A stretch of DNA of 64,000 bases from Okamejei kenojei (lineage: Eukaryota), in contig CM069156.1 of the NCBI GenBank assembly GCA_035221665.1, positions 36,022,001-36,086,000 of the forward strand. Reading direction: 5' to 3'. A program made the position numbers. Of the stretch, positions 34,001 to 52,000 are shown piece after piece; position 1 is the stretch's first letter, and every line of letters begins with the position of its first letter.

Positions 34001-37000
34001 ATTGTTAAGGGTTTGGACACGCTAGAGGCTGGAAACATGATCCCGATGTTGGGGGAGTCCAGAACCAGGGGCCACAGTTTAAGAATAAGCGGTAAGCCAT
34101 TTAGAACGGAGACGAGGAAACACTTTTTCTCACAGAGAGTTGTGAGTCTGTGGAATTCTCTGCCTCAGAGGGCGGTGGAGGCCGGTTCTCTGGATACTTT
34201 CAAGAGAGAGCTAGAAAGGGCTCTTAAAGATCGTGGAGTCAGGGGATATGGGGAGAAGGCAGGAACGGGGTACTGATTGGGGATGATCAGCCATGATCAC
34301 ATTGAATGGCAGTGCTGGCTCGAAGGGATGAATAGCCTACTCCTGCACCTATTGTCATCTGCGTGAATCTTCTCTGCATTCTTTCCAACTCAACAACATC
34401 TTTCCCCTAACATGGAGCCCAGAACAGAACACAATACTCTAAATGGGGCCTCATTAACGTCTTATACAACTGCAACATGACCTCCCAACTCTATACATTA
34501 CTCTGGCTAAAGATGCTTTTGGTTTTTTTGGGGGTTTTTTTGAACAACAGGGATGACTCCCAAGTTCATCCTCAGCAGAGAGCATAGACAAGGCTTTTGT
34601 TTTATTGTTCCATCTGAAAAACATTACCTCTGGCAGTGCAGCACTCCATCCGTACAACACTAAAATATTCACCTGGATTTTTTTCATGCAGAGGTCCCTT
34701 GACCTGAACTCACAACCTTCCGGCTGAGGGGTTAGAGCACTACCCAATGAGCCATGGCCAATACCTTTGGAAGTGGAACTTCCAGGTCTCTTCTTTAAGA
34801 AATCAAACCCCAGCCACCTCTGTGTCACACAATCCAAATACCAACCCGCAAATGCACTGAACCTTAGGAACCCTTGGAATAAAGTAGCATCCATTGGGAT
34901 CCAGGTTCAGCTTCGAAAACGGGATCAGGTTTTTTATTTTTTTAATTCCAACAAAGCAACAAATTTCTTTCCTCATCTTGGTCTAAGTACTGCAGCCAAC
35001 TAAGGCAAGAAGATAAGACACAAAATGCTGGAGTCACTCAGCGGGTCAGGCAGCATCTGGGGGAAAAGGAATAGGTGACGTCGCGGGTCGAGACCCTTCT
35101 TCACACTGAGAGACGGGGGAGAGGGAGACTGGAGATATGAAAAAGGTGCAAAGAACAAATGAATGAAAGGCTTGAAAAGAACAAATCAGGGCCGCCCGGC
35201 ACCGATGGCCAAGGAGAGGTGGAGCCCACAATGGTCCATTGTTGCCTGTGGGAGAGGTGATGGCAAAGGGATACGAACTGTGAAACGAAGCAGGATAACC
35301 GTGAAAGACAGGAAGACCTTAGACTTCAGATCAGATATTCACCATGGAAACAGGCCCTTCGGCCCACCAAGTCCGACCCGTCCATACCAGTTCTATGCCA
35401 TCCCAATTGTTGATTGGTGGCGAGTGCAGACCTGGTGGGCCGGTGCGTCTCTCTATGACTCCATGGCTAAAGCTGCTGCTTCAAAGTGCGAAGGTTGTAG
35501 GTTCAGATTCATTTCAAGACACCTTCAGTAAGAATCCTCATTAAATGCCTAGAGGTCAATATTCCTCCCCCAGCAAACAAATTACTGGATGATTTGCCGC
35601 AATGGGTCCATGTGGGTTGCTGGTGTGTCCAATCTCCACCACATTTGCCGTCAGCCACGAGTGTTAAAGAAGTTCATTGGCGGGAAGGCACTTGAACATG
35701 TTCCAAGGACACAAAGGGTTTCTGCATGAGATTAGATCCTTTCTCAGCCTCAGAAGCTGCATCCTGCCTGAAGCGCTCTTCCCTGGGCTCAGTATGGCTT
35801 CTTCTGCAGGGGAGACAAAGAAAACGCGAGTGGAAAATCCGCACCGTGGACCGGAACCCCCGCCTCGCCCGCCGCGGAGCGAGGGCACACGCAAACCCGC
35901 CTGGAGGGCCGGGAGGGAGTAAATCCACGGCCTAGACGGGGGAGTGGGCCGCTGGAGGCCCTGCAGCAGCCTGGGGCCCGGCTGGACCGGGGGCCGCTCC
36001 AAGAGGCAGAGCACGTGGACAGGACGTGGCCTACAGCAGTGGAGCAACGGTGGAGGTCATCACGGTTACGCTTAGCCAAGGCAAGGCGACCCTGCAACGT
36101 TGCTTGGTTTTTGCTCTGACATGCACTGTCAGCTGTGGGGCCTTAATATAGAGGGGTGTGACTTTCCAAATCATGTCCAATCAATTTAATTTACCACTGG
36201 TGCACTCCAATCAAGTTGTAGAAACATCGCAAGGACAATCAGTGGAAACAGAATGCACCTAAGCTCAATTTTGAGTGTCATAGCAAAGGGTCTGAATACT
36301 TATGTAAATGTGATATTTCAGTTATTTATTTTTAATTACTTTGCCAACATTTCTAATCACCTGTTTTCGCTTTTATATTATGGTGTATTGTGTGTAGATT
36401 GATGATAAAAAAAACGAATGTAATCCATTTTAAAATAAGGCTATAATGTAACAAAACGTAGAAAAAGTGAAGGGGTCTGAATACTTTCTAAATGCACTGT
36501 ACCTTTAGAAAGGAGATCAGGAGGAATTTCTTTGGTTAGATGGTGGTCAATCTGTGGAATTCATTGCCACAGACAGCTATGGAGGCCAAGTCATTGGATA
36601 TTCAGAAGGCAAAGATTGAAAGATATGTGATTAGTACGGGTGCGAGGAGTTACAGGGAGAGGCCAAGAGAATGGAGTTGAGAGGGAACGAAAGATCAGCC
36701 ATGAGGCGGAGTAGACGAGATTGGTCAAATGGCCTACTTCTGCTCCAGTGACTTAGGAATGTTTTCCTGCATGAATAAATGTAGTATTGAAACACAATAT
36801 TTCTCTCACCTTGTTTGTGTCCATAACTGCAAAGCAAAGGATACAGCATCAGTACAACTTATGTCAGCACCACCACATCACTGATTCATCATCATTGCTA
36901 GCTTCGTTCAAAACACTTTTTCAAAATGGATAAACTACAGGGCAAAATTCACACGGCTATGTGCGCAAACTCTTTTCTTCCTCTCCACTAAAGCTATAGG

Positions 37001-49000: not shown

Positions 49001-52000
49001 ACAAAAAGTTGTTTATCCAAATAAAAACCTGCTTGCTGACTTCACTTGATGAGTCAGGGTACCTTTTACTTTAAAATGAATTGCTTTCTCATCGGTATCG
49101 ATACCACCAAAGAGCAGAAACGCCTTCCTCGAGACGGTCAAGTGGTCCAACATATGAGCCCCTTCATTTTGCTTATCTTCTCGAAAGGTGCATTCCAGCT
49201 TTCTGTTTGCATCAGTGAGTCCATTGTAGGCCAGCACTGTCCCTGCAGAGGTGGAAAGTATTCAACAAAGGGAATGTTTTTTAACAACGCATTTATTTAA
49301 ACAGCGCCACTTCATTGAGAATAGATGCATTTGAACAAGATATCTATAAACAAATGTCTATACGTCTATAAACAAGAATGTAGACACAAGAATGCTGGAC
49401 TAACTCAGCGGGTCAGGCAGCATCTCTGGAGAAAAGGAAAAGGTGACGTTTCGGTTCGAGACCCTTCTTCGGACAACCCGAAAGGGTTAGGAGATGTGGG
49501 GGGCAGGTGTGTTTTACACAGAGGGTGGTGGGTGCCTGGAACGAGTTGCCGGGGTGGTGGTGAGCCGGATACTTTTGGATAGGCCCATGGGCGTGTAGAG
49601 GGTGGAGGGGCATGGATTGTGTGCAGGCAGAGTAGAGTTGGTCTTGGCATCTTGTTGGGCACAGACAGTATGGGCCGAAGGGCCTGTTCCTGTGCTGTAC
49701 TGTTGTATGCTCTATGGTCCCAAAGAAGCAGCTCACGCCCCTGCTTTGGGATATTGTTGCTGAGGTTGAATTTATAACGACTAAACTGGGCATTCGGCTT
49801 GCTGGGGGTCCAATGAGAATGGGATGTGTGGGCAGGAACTGCAGATGCTGCTTTAAGCCGAAGATAGACACAAAACGCTGGAGTAACTCGGCGGGTCAGG
49901 CAGCATCTCTGGAGACAAGGGGTGGGTGACGGGGTCGAGTGCCTTCTTCAGACACGGGCTCTAAAAGCAACACTTTGCGTGCCAAGGACACGTAGGTGGG
50001 ACAGGCCCGCGGCGCGGTGCGAATCGGGGTGGTCTTACCAGCGGAGACCATGCAGAGGAGCAGAGCCAACATGCGTGGAGATAGACCCGGAGCCGCCGGT
50101 CTCAGCCCAAGGACAGACATTTCACTTTCGATTTCTCGAATCCTACGCGGTAGCTTCCGGGATCCAGCATCTAATGTAAGGAAGATTGGTTTGGAGATTG
50201 TAACCGTGTAAGCAGGGGCAGGACAAGGGCAGGTGGGCGGAGAGGGTGGTGAGGTGAGGGGATGGGGGAGAGGGGGTGGGAGGGGATGGGGGGAGATGGG
50301 AGGGGAGAGAGGGAGGGAGATGGGGGGAGAGGGGATGGGAGGGGGAGGGATGGGGGGGATGGGGGGGAGAGGGGATGGGAGGAGAGGGGGGGGAGGGGAT
50401 GGGGGGAGAGGGATGGGGAGGAGGGGGAACGGGGAGGAGGATGGGAGGATGGATGGATGGGGGGGAGGGGATGGGGGGGAGAGGGGGGGGGGAGGGGATG
50501 GGGAGAGGGGATGGGGGAGAGGGGATGGGGAGGAGAGGGGATTTGGGGGGAGAGGGGATGGGGGGAGATGGGGGAGGGGGGAATGGGGGGGGAGTGATGA
50601 TGGGACGGGGAGGGGGGGATGAGGGGGTGGGAGAGGGGGGTAGGAGGAGATGGGGGATTGGAGGGGGGAGAGGGGATGGGGAGGGAGAGGGATGGGGGGA
50701 GAGTATGGGGGGGAAAGGGGAATGGGGAGGGAGGGGAGGGGAATTGGGGGAGAGGGGATGGGGGGAGAGGGGATATTGGGGATGATGGGGGAGGAGGGGG
50801 AAGGCGAGGGGATGGGGGGAGAGGGATGGGGGATAGGGAGGGAAGGGAGGGGATGGGTGGAGAAGGGTTGATGGGGGGAGAGGGATGGGTGGATAGAGAG
50901 GGATGGGTGAGAGGGGTGGGGAGGAGGCTGGGCGTAGGTGATGGAGGGTGGATGGGAGAGAGGGTGGGGAGGCTCACAGCGTAAGTTCAGAGGTGGATGC
51001 GTATGGGGGGAGAGGGTGATGGTAGAGATGTGGATGGGGATGGGAGGGGATGGGGAGGAGAGGAAGATGTGGGTTGGGGAGAGGGATGAGAGTAGGGGCA
51101 TAGGATGAGGATGCGGTGATTGTGCAGAGGGGAGGTCGTTGGGAGGGGATGGCGAGGAGAGGTATCATAGGGAGGAAGAGGGATTTTGGAGAGGAGTGTC
51201 GTAGCTTTTTCCCTTTGTTCTTGCTTTTCCATTTCTCTTCATGGTTTTCGCGTTTATATGGTCTAGCGTTCAGTTTTCATTTCTTCTGGGTCATTTCTTG
51301 CTTCTGGCCGCTTTTCATCTCTTATTTCTTCATTGTCTCGTTAGGGGCATTGCTTCTTTTCTTTCTGTGCAATTTCTTTTCTGTCTCTCCTCCTTTTCAT
51401 TTTTTTCTCTCTTGTAGCACGGCTTCTCGTTTTTTTCATCTCTTCATGGTCAGTTTTTCTTTTCATTTTCATCTTGCTTCTTTTATTCTCAGTTTCTTTT
51501 CTTCTCTTTAGTCTCGCTTTCCATTTATTCTCTTTTCATGCTCCTATTCTTCGTCTCAATTTTCATTTTTCTTGTGCTAGCGTTTCATTTTCTTCGGGTT
51601 GCTTTTCGTTTTACACTTTGGCATTCTCTTCGTTCCCCATTGCATTGCTTGTTTTTTTCTTTCTTTTCATTTCTTTCTATGTTCATTTGCATTTTCTTTT
51701 CTTTTGTCATTTTCTCTCTTGTCTCCTTTTCATGTCTCTTTCTTGTTAGCACTTTCATGTACTGCTTTTCATTCTTCCCCTCTATTCTTTCATTTGTCTG
51801 CTACTGTTCATTTTCATTTCGTTTTCAATTATCTTTTCATTTTCATTCTCTTCTATTTTGCTCACTTGTCTTTGCTCTTTATCATTTCTCTCTTTTCATT
51901 CTTTTCATTTGCTATCCACTTCTTCTCTATTCATTCTCCTTCTATTTTCATTTCTCTTATCATTTTCTTCTCTTATCCTATCGTTTCATGGGTCTTCTCT

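What the first reader, a model, noticed from the sequence alone, without database searches (positions are those of the whole stretch)
35789..50120. Complete tapasin-family gene with a hybrid feature set: probably the third paralog rather than tapasin or TAPBPR
Seen: 8 phase-compatible exons give a 447-aa type I membrane protein. It has only the paired N-domain cysteines (LEC, LECEI). There is no extra Cys between CEISQY and WF, the TM helix is uncharged, and the tail is HLNKVMDTNKKKPY*. Known: tapasin has Cys95 (ERp57 link), a TM lysine (TAP binding) and a di-lysine tail. Human TAPBPR has a free Cys94 (UGGT1 link) and no di-lysine motif. A third 'TAPBPL' lineage has been reported in non-mammalian jawed vertebrates. 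Inference: this is an ER-retrieved MHC class I chaperone or peptide editor that may work outside the classical peptide-loading complex. Its neighbours (RAP1GAP2-like, EXO5) match neither the MHC nor the mammalian TAPBPR locus.
Basis: partly seen in the sequence, partly recalled or inferred. Interest (0 to 1): 0.7.

Follow-up and report, generated by a model that had tools for sequence, protein, structure and literature searches.

The report
Tapasin-family MHC class I chaperone gene
This is an intact gene for a relative of tapasin and TAPBPR, the proteins that help MHC class I molecules pick their peptides, and it lacks the known docking features of both; it adds a member to a known family rather than a new kind of system.

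Summary
On the minus strand, 8 exons (50120 to 35789) have GT..AG introns and compatible phases, and sum to 1344 nt (447 codons plus stop). Exon 4 is a V-set Ig domain and exon 5 a C1-set Ig domain. Exon 6 is an uncharged membrane span. Exons 7 and 8 give a short tail ending K-K-P-Y.

Family membership is well supported. Both Ig exons hit human TAPBPR in the PDB colinearly, and their four cysteines fall on TAPBPR C191, C262, C300 and C361. Exon 3 carries the TAPBPR motif C-E-I-S-x-Y. Human tapasin is in none of the best-60 lists.

The gene lacks a tapasin C95 or TAPBPR C94 equivalent and a membrane-span lysine. It also lacks the extra cysteine described for the third lineage (TAPBPL).

New here: the only triple-GAAA interferon-response-like element in the 64 kb abuts the ATG. 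The di-lysine tail depends on a 17-nt micro-exon.

EXO5 is confirmed as a neighbour; the RAP1GAP2-like gene is not. "Third paralog" is plausible but could not be tested, because no vertebrate sequence library was open and the joined protein was not built. The result is a new member of a known kind, of moderate interest.

The parts
50039..50120 (-). Exon 1: ATG plus a 27-codon signal peptide, ending in the first base of a split codon (phase 1).
   Evidence: Donor GTAAGA. A hydrophobic core ends in V-S-A. The cleavage site is inferred, not computed.
49063..49242 (-). Exon 2: first half of the N-terminal domain. It carries the first conserved cysteine (L-E-C-T-F) and a 22-residue charged loop with a hydrophobic centre that contains G-A-H-M-L.
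   Evidence: No Pfam or PDB match. The pattern L-[DE]-C-x-[FL] also occurs round C18 of human TAPBPR, as spelled by primers in PMC5441866 and PMC6307860. The donor GTACCC is weak.
46172..46462 (-). Exon 3: second half of the N-terminal domain. It carries the second conserved cysteine in C-E-I-S-Q-Y, has no further cysteine, and ends in an acidic loop.
   Evidence: The motif CEIS.Y occurs once in the six-frame translation of the window and 0 times in 100 shuffles. The same motif surrounds C101 of human TAPBPR (primers). There is no PDB or Pfam hit for the exon as a whole.
42842..43180 (-). Exon 4: V-set Ig domain with a disulfide pair 71 residues apart and one N-A-S sequon.
   Evidence: Pfam V-set 1.2e-09. 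PDB hit to TAPBPR at 5.1e-05: query 5-98 on chain 173-266, which places the cysteines on 191 and 262. CD276 and VTCN1 score higher.
39367..39693 (-). Exon 5: C1-set Ig domain with a disulfide pair 65 residues apart and one N-V-T sequon.
   Evidence: Pfam C1-set 1.6e-09. PDB hit to TAPBPR at 1.1e-06: query 19-99 on chain 296-372, which places the cysteines on 300 and 361. NCR3LG1 scores higher, at 3.6e-09.
37734..37826 (-). Exon 6: membrane span. The 23-residue hydrophobic core has no K, R, D or E and holds one cysteine. The exon ends H-L-N-K.
36810..36826 (-). Exon 7: 17-nt micro-exon (completes V, then M-D-T-N-K). It shifts the phase from 1 to 0.
   Evidence: It is the only strict acceptor-to-donor pair 6-60 nt apart in 35000-37733, and 1 of 10 such pairs on the whole minus strand. 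There is no transcript evidence.
35789..35803 (-). Exon 8, coding part: K-K-P-Y then stop (a KKxx end).
   Evidence: The acceptor has 16 of 18 pyrimidines. If exon 7 is skipped, the same acceptor gives a 46-residue tail without KKxx.
50120..50135 (-). ISRE/IRF-like element: three GAAA units 2 nt apart. Its last base is the A of the ATG.
   Evidence: Only match to GAAANNGAAANNGAAA in 64 kb on both strands; expected 0.01, and 1 of 100 shuffles had a match. The shorter pattern GAAANNGAAAST is not rare on its own: 1 match against 0.37 expected.
50153..50189 (-). CCAAT (50189-50185) and a CCGGAAGC ETS-like site (50160-50153) just upstream of the ISRE-like element.
   Evidence: Seen by eye. No statistics were run.
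34933..34946 (-). First polyadenylation-like signals downstream of the stop (ATTAAA and AATAAA), about 850 nt into a putative 3' UTR.
   Evidence: The next one is at 34606. This is a candidate only.

Best explanation
The locus is an intact, probably interferon-responsive gene for a type I membrane protein of the tapasin family. Its parts in order are a signal peptide, an N-terminal domain of about 160 residues with one disulfide, a V-set Ig domain, a C1-set Ig domain, an uncharged membrane span and a short tail.

Among solved structures its nearest relative is human TAPBPR. It is not tapasin proper: it has no membrane-span lysine and no C95 equivalent, it has an IgV disulfide, and no MHC gene is seen in the window. 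It is also not a typical TAPBPR: the C94 position holds glycine, the N-domain cysteine spacing is 22 residues shorter, and the tail is short and ends KKxx.

Most likely it represents the third tapasin lineage (TAPBPL of Grimholt 2018) or a paralogue specific to this animal's lineage.

Inferred mechanism, none of it shown here:
- It cradles peptide-receptive MHC class I/beta2-microglobulin with the N/IgV unit and the IgC1 domain, as TAPBPR and tapasin do.
- It works without docking to TAP and without an ERp57 or UGGT1 link.
- COPI retrieval through the KKxx end keeps it in the ER and cis-Golgi.
- IRF/STAT signalling raises its expression.
For: Gene model: 8 exons, 7 GT..AG introns, phases 1,1,1,1,1,1,0, 1344 nt.

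Domains: V-set 1.2e-09 and C1-set 1.6e-09, that is 2 of 5 exon peptides with a Pfam family.

TAPBPR similarity:
- TAPBPR chains are 4 of the best 60 PDB rows for exon 4 (5.1e-05 to 1.7e-04).
- TAPBPR chains are 4 of the best 60 PDB rows for exon 5 (1.1e-06 to 1.7e-06).
- The hits are colinear (173-266, then 296-372). At those offsets the four Ig cysteines fall on 191, 262, 300 and 361, the numbers given for the TAPBPR disulfides in PMC5441866.
- No chain named tapasin is among the best 60.

N-domain:
- CEIS.Y and LDCGF each occur once in the six-frame translation, against 0.0 and 0.03 expected. Both are spelled by the TAPBPR C101A and C191A primers.
- By hand, 8 of 16 ungapped residues round the exon 3 cysteine equal those round TAPBPR C94-C101, with glycine at the C94 place.

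Other points:
- The membrane span has no lysine. Grimholt 2018 says the tapasin membrane-span lysine is not conserved in TAPBPL and that some TAPBPL carry an ER retention signal.
- The ISRE-like element lies at the ATG, and salmon TAPBPL genes are induced by interferon-gamma (PMC7573153).
- EXO5 lies next door. The shark and bony-fish TAPBPR gene is reported with lag3, cd4, C-type lectins and a2m (PMC10751288).
Against: - Exons 2 and 3 as whole peptides match nothing: PDB gave 0 hits and 1 chance hit, Pfam gave none, and the Atlas gave only a weak DOMON-like lead below its recognition threshold. The N-domain link to the family therefore rests on short motifs, cysteine placement and position in the gene.
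- B7-family chains outscore TAPBPR for both Ig exons: CD276 3.9e-13 and VTCN1 5.6e-07, NCR3LG1 3.6e-09.
- The cysteine that Grimholt 2018 calls unique to TAPBPL is absent.
- The KKxx end depends on an unconfirmed 17-nt exon. Skipping it gives a 46-residue tail without the motif.
- The ISRE-like element abuts the ATG, an unusual place for a promoter element, so the start codon or the transcription start may be misplaced.
- The window shows only about 14 kb on either side, so linkage to MHC or MHC-paralogous genes is not excluded.
- No tree, no transcript and no structure of the whole protein were obtained.
Confidence: 0.6

Rival explanations
1. It is the TAPBPR orthologue of this animal, or a recent duplicate of it, that has lost C94 and acquired a short tail.
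For: TAPBPR is the only tapasin-family member found by sequence search. The IgV disulfide has the identical 71-residue spacing, and the motifs C-E-I-S-x-Y and L-D-C-G-F are shared. If the signal peptide is cut after Ala27, the first cysteine sits at mature position 18, as in human TAPBPR (inference).
Against: PMC5441866 states that all lumenal cysteines of TAPBPR are conserved from humans to fish, whereas here the C94 place holds glycine. The N-domain cysteine spacing is 61 against 83. The tail is short. None of the genes reported beside shark and bony-fish tapbpl (lag3, cd4, C-type lectins, a2m) is seen in the window; EXO5 is there instead. The PDB holds no TAPBPL-lineage protein, so 'nearest to TAPBPR' may only mean 'nearest among the two that are solved'.
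Confidence: 0.2
2. It is tapasin proper (TAPBP), the TAP-docking subunit of the peptide-loading complex.
For: It has a KKxx end, a short tail, a total length of 447 residues and an N-domain cysteine spacing of 61, close to tapasin's 64.
Against: There is no lysine or any other charge in the membrane span, and no unpaired cysteine. It has an IgV disulfide, which human tapasin lacks. Tapasin is absent from the best 60 PDB rows of three searches. No TAP, PSMB or class I gene is seen in the window.
Confidence: 0.03
3. It is a B7/nectin-like V-C1 surface ligand. Either exons 2-3 are not used, or the protein goes to the cell surface and acts in cell-cell signalling rather than in peptide loading.
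For: The top PDB hits are CD276, VTCN1 and NCR3LG1. The Atlas neighbours of exon 4 are Nectin-2 and CD200-type V-set clusters. Exon 1 could splice straight to exon 4 in frame, since both introns are phase 1. Skipping exon 7 removes the ER-retrieval motif. A paper seen only in a search listing reports human TAPBPL protein as a T-cell co-inhibitor with homology to B7 members (PMC8103088).
Against: Two open, phase-compatible exons with good acceptors lie between the signal exon and the IgV exon. One of them carries a TAPBPR motif found nowhere else in the window. PMC13262535 reports that NCR3LG1 itself clusters with TAPBP/TAPBPL, so a B7-H6 top hit is expected for a tapasin-family C1 domain.
Confidence: 0.1
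4. It is an unexpressed or decaying copy that merely looks intact.
For: There is no transcript evidence. The exon 2 donor is weak. The introns are packed with repeats: 26 copies of one SINE-like 24-mer in the window and a reverse-transcriptase fragment in intron 2.
Against: There is no stop or frameshift in 1344 nt over 8 exons, and all splice sites are canonical. A promoter-proximal ISRE-like element is present. There is no second copy of any exon in the window (the next best tblastn hit has E 0.92).
Confidence: 0.05

Closest known systems
Human TAPBPR (gene symbol TAPBPL; PDB 5OPI, 5WER, 7RNO)
   Same: Same order of domains. The IgV and IgC1 exons match it colinearly (5.1e-05 and 1.1e-06). 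All four Ig cysteines fall on its C191, C262, C300 and C361. It shares the motifs L-D-C-G-F and C-E-I-S-x-Y. It has no membrane-span lysine (for TAPBPR this is recalled).
   Different: There is no C94 equivalent (glycine there). The N-domain cysteines are 61 apart rather than 83. The tail is short and ends KKxx, whereas TAPBPR has a longer tail without that motif (the TAPBPR tail is recalled). Its neighbour is EXO5 rather than the lag3/cd4/lectin neighbourhood.
Tapasin (TAPBP)
   Same: Overall architecture, short tail with a di-lysine end, and N-domain disulfide spacing (61 against 64). By my recall of the human sequence only, the N-linked sequon sits the same distance upstream of the F-strand position as tapasin N233.
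   Different: It has no membrane-span lysine and no C95. It has an IgV disulfide. It was not detected by phmmer in the best 60 of three searches. It is not seen beside MHC genes.
TAPBPL, the third tapasin lineage of Grimholt 2018 (teleosts, gar, frog, turtle, birds, opossum)
   Same: No membrane-span lysine, an ER-retrieval type end as in 'some TAPBPL', and low similarity to both TAPBP and TAPBPR. An interferon-response-like element fits the interferon-gamma induction of the salmon TAPBPL genes.
   Different: The cysteine described as unique to TAPBPL is absent. That paper's tree includes no cartilaginous fish. Its alignment is in a supplement that I could not open, so no residue-level comparison was made.
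B7 family (CD276/B7-H3, VTCN1/B7-H4, NCR3LG1/B7-H6)
   Same: These are the best-scoring solved relatives of each Ig exon. CD276 and VTCN1 share a G-N-A-S-[LI]-R stretch with the V domain (alignments).
   Different: B7 genes go from the signal exon straight to IgV. Here two coding exons (157 codons) intervene and carry tapasin-family motifs.

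Membership tests
Tapasin family (TAPBP/TAPBPR/TAPBPL) | IgV-like domain, then an IgC1 domain, then a single membrane span, in a type I protein | tested here: met
   Pfam V-set 1.2e-09 and C1-set 1.6e-09. A 23-residue hydrophobic core follows.
Tapasin family (TAPBP/TAPBPR/TAPBPL) | A unique N-terminal domain of about 160-190 residues before the IgV domain, tied by one conserved disulfide (tapasin C7-C71, TAPBPR C18-C101) | tested here: inconclusive
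   Two exons (157 codons) hold exactly two cysteines 61 apart, in the motifs L-E-C-x-F and C-E-I-S-x-Y, which recur in TAPBPR. As whole peptides, however, the exons have no PDB, Pfam or Atlas match. The single-exon fold had pLDDT 53.0 and no meaningful Foldseek hit.
Tapasin family (TAPBP/TAPBPR/TAPBPL) | Detectable sequence similarity to a solved member over both Ig domains, in the right order | tested here: met
   TAPBPR chains are 4 of the best 60 rows in each. The hits are colinear and the cysteines are in register.
Tapasin family (TAPBP/TAPBPR/TAPBPL) | Binds peptide-receptive MHC class I/beta2-microglobulin | not testable with these tools
   The window holds no MHC class I or beta2-microglobulin sequence of this animal, and the joined protein was not to be built.
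Tapasin proper (TAPBP) | Lysine in the membrane span that docks to TAP | tested here: not met
   Exon 6 has no K, R, D or E over 28 residues. The feature is as stated in PMC5824609.
Tapasin proper (TAPBP) | Unpaired cysteine (human C95) for the ERp57 conjugate | tested here: not met
   No cysteine follows the second N-domain cysteine. Grimholt 2018 notes that C95 is not conserved outside mammals either, so this test is weak.
Tapasin proper (TAPBP) | Linkage to class Ia, TAP and PSMB genes in non-mammals | tested here: not met
   The only recognisable neighbour is EXO5. The window is short, so distant linkage is not excluded.
TAPBPR | Seven lumenal cysteines, including the unpaired C94, conserved from humans to fish (PMC5441866) | tested here: not met
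   There are six lumenal cysteines. The residue 7 places before the C-E-I-S cysteine is glycine (aligned by hand).
TAPBPR | Additional IgV disulfide C191-C262 | tested here: met
   The exon 4 cysteines are 71 apart and map to 191 and 262 at the phmmer offset.
TAPBPL (third lineage, Grimholt 2018) | Clusters with TAPBPL sequences in a tree with TAPBP and TAPBPR | not testable with these tools
   No library of vertebrate proteins or genomes was open, and the paper's sequences are in a closed supplement.
TAPBPL (third lineage, Grimholt 2018) | Unique cysteine 11 residues downstream of the human tapasin C95 position | tested here: not met
   The last 78 residues of exon 3 hold no cysteine. The feature is as stated.
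TAPBPL (third lineage, Grimholt 2018) | No membrane-span lysine; an ER retention signal in some members | tested here: met
   The KKxx end holds only if exon 7 is used.
B7 family | Signal exon followed directly by the IgV exon, with no extra N-terminal domain | tested here: not met
   Exons 2 and 3 intervene. An isoform that skips them would stay in frame and is not excluded.

The most novel reading that the evidence does not exclude
This may be a tapasin-family lineage not yet described in print for cartilaginous fish. It could be the TAPBPL orthologue, which would place all three paralogues before the split of cartilaginous and bony vertebrates, or it could be a fourth lineage.

On this reading it is a 'bare' editor with no TAP, ERp57 or UGGT1 handle. 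Inclusion or skipping of a 17-nt micro-exon would switch it between ER retrieval (KKxx) and export with a 46-residue tail. That would give one interferon-driven gene both an intracellular editing role and a surface role.

Probability: 0.15. Interest if true: 0.6.

Novelty: new member of a known kind. Interest (0 to 1): 0.4.

Why it matters
Tapasin and TAPBPR are the only two known MHC class I peptide editors. The function of the third lineage, TAPBPL, is stated to be unknown (PMC7573153 and PMC9372762, passages).

A member with no lysine for TAP and no unpaired cysteine for ERp57 or UGGT1 is a natural 'minimal' editor. It could show which functions of the family are ancestral.

If the animal is a cartilaginous fish and the gene is TAPBPL, the triplication of the family predates the split from bony vertebrates. 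None of the papers found by my searches says this: 6 papers hold both 'TAPBPL' and 'shark'. Passages of 5 were read; PMC1769493 was seen only as a listing. None reports a third lineage in cartilaginous fish.

The gene is probably already present in automatic genome annotation, so the value is comparative rather than a discovery of a new system.

Tried and rejected
1. Folding single exons (AlphaFold2 without an alignment). Exon 4 gave pLDDT 51.9 and exon 3 gave 53.0. Foldseek against the PDB then returned only generic beta-sandwich proteins for exon 4 (best SIX6, 9.3e-04; no Ig, tapasin or TAPBPR chain in the 50 ranks listed). For exon 3 nothing reached E 0.001. The models are too poor, so I drew no conclusion.

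2. ESM Atlas. Exon 3 gave DOMON-like clusters at 0.94, but recognition was 1787, below the 2300 mark. Exon 4 gave generic V-set clusters. Neither separates tapasin-family from other IgSF proteins.

3. Getting the TAPBPR alignment printed by searching only the first 62 residues of exon 4. TAPBPR still ranked sixth (E 0.11) behind antibody light chains, so I saw no residue-by-residue alignment. The conservation of the MHC-contact residues of TAPBPR and tapasin therefore stayed unchecked.

4. Confirming the RAP1GAP2-like neighbour. Seven left-flank ORFs got no Pfam family above chance. I saw no Rap-GAP domain ORF in my listings of the flanks (the output was cut).

5. Synteny from the literature. 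'EXO5' plus 'TAPBPL' found 1 paper, which was unrelated.

6. A second copy or pseudo-exons in the window. tblastn of the five exon peptides found only themselves.

7. Considered and dropped:
- That the ISRE-like element is chance: it is rare as a triple but not as a 12-mer.
- Complex prediction was not used, because no partner from this animal is at hand.

Full report
**Observation**

The gene lies on the minus strand. I read every exon border in the sequence and recomputed lengths, phases, flanks and per-exon peptides with a script that keeps the exons apart.

| Exon | Coordinates | Length |
|---|---|---|
| 1 | 50120-50039 | 82 nt |
| 2 | 49242-49063 | 180 nt |
| 3 | 46462-46172 | 291 nt |
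| 4 | 43180-42842 | 339 nt |
| 5 | 39693-39367 | 327 nt |
| 6 | 37826-37734 | 93 nt |
| 7 | 36826-36810 | 17 nt |
| 8 (coding part) | 35803-35789 | 15 nt |

- The sum is 1344 nt, which is 447 codons plus stop.
- All seven introns are GT..AG. Introns 1-6 are phase 1, the usual pattern for Ig-superfamily genes, and intron 7 is phase 0.
- Acceptor tracts hold 12-16 pyrimidines of 18.
Every search was exon by exon, which limits what could be learnt about the N-terminal domain.
- The window holds one N run (7242-7389), far from the gene and left untouched.

**Family membership**

Pfam recognises 2 of the 5 exon peptides sent. Exon 4 is a V-set domain (1.2e-09, 38.8 bits against a cut-off of 26). 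Exon 5 is a C1-set domain (1.6e-09, 38.4 bits against 21). Exons 2 and 3 have no family, and the membrane-span exon has only a chance-level row.

Against the PDB:
- For exon 4 the best rows are CD276 (3.9e-13) and VTCN1 (5.6e-07). Human TAPBPR follows at 5.1e-05 to 1.7e-04, with 4 chains among the best 60 of 561 hits.
- For exon 5 the best row is NCR3LG1 (3.6e-09). TAPBPR is at 1.1e-06 to 1.7e-06, with 4 chains among the best 60 of 2694 hits.
- No chain named tapasin appears in the best 60.

The TAPBPR matches are colinear: exon 4 residues 5-98 lie on chain residues 173-266, and exon 5 residues 19-99 lie on 296-372. At those offsets the four Ig cysteines fall on 191, 262, 300 and 361. Neerincx et al. 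(PMC5441866, passages) give exactly these numbers for the IgV and IgC disulfides of human TAPBPR.

The same paper says human tapasin has only C7-C71 and C295-C363 plus the free C95. The IgV disulfide is therefore a TAPBPR-type trait.

The high B7 scores do not argue against the family. PMC13262535 (passages) reports that NCR3LG1 clusters with TAPBP/TAPBPL among human IgSF proteins.

**The N-terminal domain**

This is the part that separates a tapasin relative from a B7-like V-C1 protein, and it is the weakest link.
- As whole peptides, exon 2 found nothing in the PDB.
- Exon 3 found one chance row.
- The Atlas gave a DOMON-like lead below its recognition mark.
- The single-exon fold was poor (pLDDT 53.0) and had no meaningful structural neighbour.

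What does link these exons to the family is local.
- The mutagenesis primers printed in PMC5441866 (Table 3) spell the residues round the TAPBPR cysteines: L-D-C18-F-L, D-C94-S-G-K-E-V-T-C101-E-I-S-R-Y and L-D-C191-G-F.
- The window gene has L-E-C-T-F in exon 2, D-G-K-G-E-E-L-E-C-E-I-S-Q-Y in exon 3 and L-D-C-G-F in exon 4.
- By hand, 8 of 16 ungapped positions round the exon 3 cysteine are identical, and glycine stands at the C94 place.
- CEIS.Y and LDCGF each occur once in the six-frame translation of the 64 kb, against 0.0 and 0.03 expected from 100 shuffles.
- Exon 2 then carries a 22-residue charged loop with G-A-H-M-L at its centre. The functional K22-D35 loop of TAPBPR also holds G-A-H, with its 'leucine lever' four residues further on (PMC6307860, Table 1). 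This is a resemblance, not a test.
- No exon has a second copy in the window.

**Which paralogue**

Measured features point in different directions.

| Feature | This gene | Human tapasin | Human TAPBPR |
|---|---|---|---|
| N-domain cysteine spacing | 61 | 64 | 83 |
| IgV disulfide spacing | 71 | none | 71 |
| IgC disulfide spacing | 65 | 68 | 61 |

- There is no unpaired lumenal cysteine of any kind. [quoted passage not shown] It also lacks the cysteine 11 residues downstream of the C95 position, which Grimholt 2018 calls unique to TAPBPL (PMC5824609, passages).
- There is no lysine in the membrane span. Grimholt 2018 states the same for TAPBPL.
- The model ends K-K-P-Y. Grimholt 2018 says some TAPBPL carry an ER retention signal like mammalian tapasin.

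Tapasin proper is therefore very unlikely. A typical TAPBPR is unlikely. TAPBPL or a lineage-specific paralogue is the most likely reading. The decisive test, a tree, could not be run. No vertebrate sequence collection was open, and the TAPBPL sequences and alignment of Grimholt 2018 are in a supplement that was closed.

**Surroundings**

- EXO5 is confirmed on the same strand upstream of the gene. Pfam Exo5 matched 3 of 10 flank ORFs tested: 59068-59313 (6.9e-19), 62713-63114 (1.6e-06) and 59255-59584 (0.016, below the cut-off).
- The RAP1GAP2-like gene is not confirmed.
- Veríssimo et al. (PMC10751288, passages) place the shark and bony-fish tapbpl gene, meaning TAPBPR, with lag3, cd4, C-type lectins and a2m. 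None of these is recognisable here, but the window shows only about 14 kb beyond each end of the gene.

**New points**

1. A triple-GAAA element (GAAATCGAAAGTGAAA, 50135-50120) abuts the start codon.
   - It is the only match to the pattern on either strand of the window, with 0.01 expected. The shorter 12-mer pattern alone is not rare.
   - A CCAAT box and a CCGGAAGC site lie 30-70 nt upstream (by eye).
   - This fits an interferon- or IRF-driven gene. The three salmon TAPBPL genes rise after interferon-gamma (PMC7573153, passages).
   - Its position right at the ATG means the transcription start or the start codon needs transcript evidence.
2. The di-lysine end depends on the 17-nt exon 7.
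   - That exon is the only strict acceptor-to-donor pair 6-60 nt apart between exon 6 and 35000, and 1 of 10 such pairs on the whole minus strand. It is therefore unlikely to be accidental.
   - If it is skipped, exon 8 is read in another frame and gives a 46-residue tail without KKxx.

**Mechanism (inferred, not shown)**

By analogy with the solved TAPBPR and tapasin complexes, the N/IgV unit and the C1 domain would hold empty or poorly loaded class I/beta2-microglobulin, and the exon 2 loop would sit near the F pocket. The protein lacks a membrane-span lysine and any free cysteine. It should therefore act outside the TAP-centred loading complex and without an ERp57 or UGGT1 link. The KKxx end would return it from the cis-Golgi to the ER. 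Expression would follow interferon signalling.

**Novelty and verdict**

My searches found no paper that reports a third tapasin lineage in cartilaginous fish.
- One search found 6 papers with 'TAPBPL' and 'shark'. Passages of 5 were read; PMC1769493 was seen only as a listing.
- One search found 11 papers, of which I read passages of 4.
- One search found 189 papers, of which 25 were listed and none was relevant beyond those already read.

I could not determine the animal.

The gene is a new member of a known kind. Interest is moderate.

Noticed in passing
window 59068-63114 (-): EXO5 lies upstream of the gene on the same strand, in at least three ORF pieces (Pfam Exo5). The pieces at 59255-59584 and 59068-59313 overlap in different frames, so there is either a short intron or a frameshift near 59300.
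   Followed up: partly
window 50256-50921: A G-rich degenerate tandem repeat (period 14, about 47 copies, 66% matches) starts about 140 nt upstream of the ATG. On the gene's strand it forms a roughly 0.7-kb pyrimidine-rich tract next to the promoter. Similar low-complexity tracts give long artefactual ORFs at 7595-8671 and 60776-61870.
   Followed up: partly
window, 26 sites, e.g. 49401-49424, 49884-49907, 46656-46679, 42273-42296: A SINE-like repeat: one 24-mer from intron 1 recurs 26 times on both strands with 3 or fewer mismatches, against 0 expected. Copies lie in introns 1, 2, 3 and 4 and in both flanks, and none lies in an exon. It produces many of the spurious ORFs in the region.
   Followed up: partly
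window 12558-14976 (+); 22520-22858 (+); 47425-47781 (-): Non-LTR retrotransposon remains. Pfam RVT_1 matched 3 of 6 ORFs tested (9.2e-23, 9.1e-10, 6.9e-09), and the ORF after the first one gave an ALKBH8_N-type match. The third fragment lies in intron 2 of the gene.
   Followed up: partly
window 7595-7810 (+): A serine-rich ORF ends in an acidic stretch just after the N run and just before a long G/W-rich simple repeat. It has no Pfam family, and I saw no Rap-GAP domain ORF in the window.
   Followed up: partly
window 35664-35803 (-): Skipping the 17-nt exon 7 would read exon 8 in another frame and give a 46-residue cytoplasmic tail without a di-lysine end. This is a possible switch between ER retrieval and export.
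   Followed up: partly
window 7242-7389: The only N run in the window (148 bases). It was left as it is.
   Followed up: no
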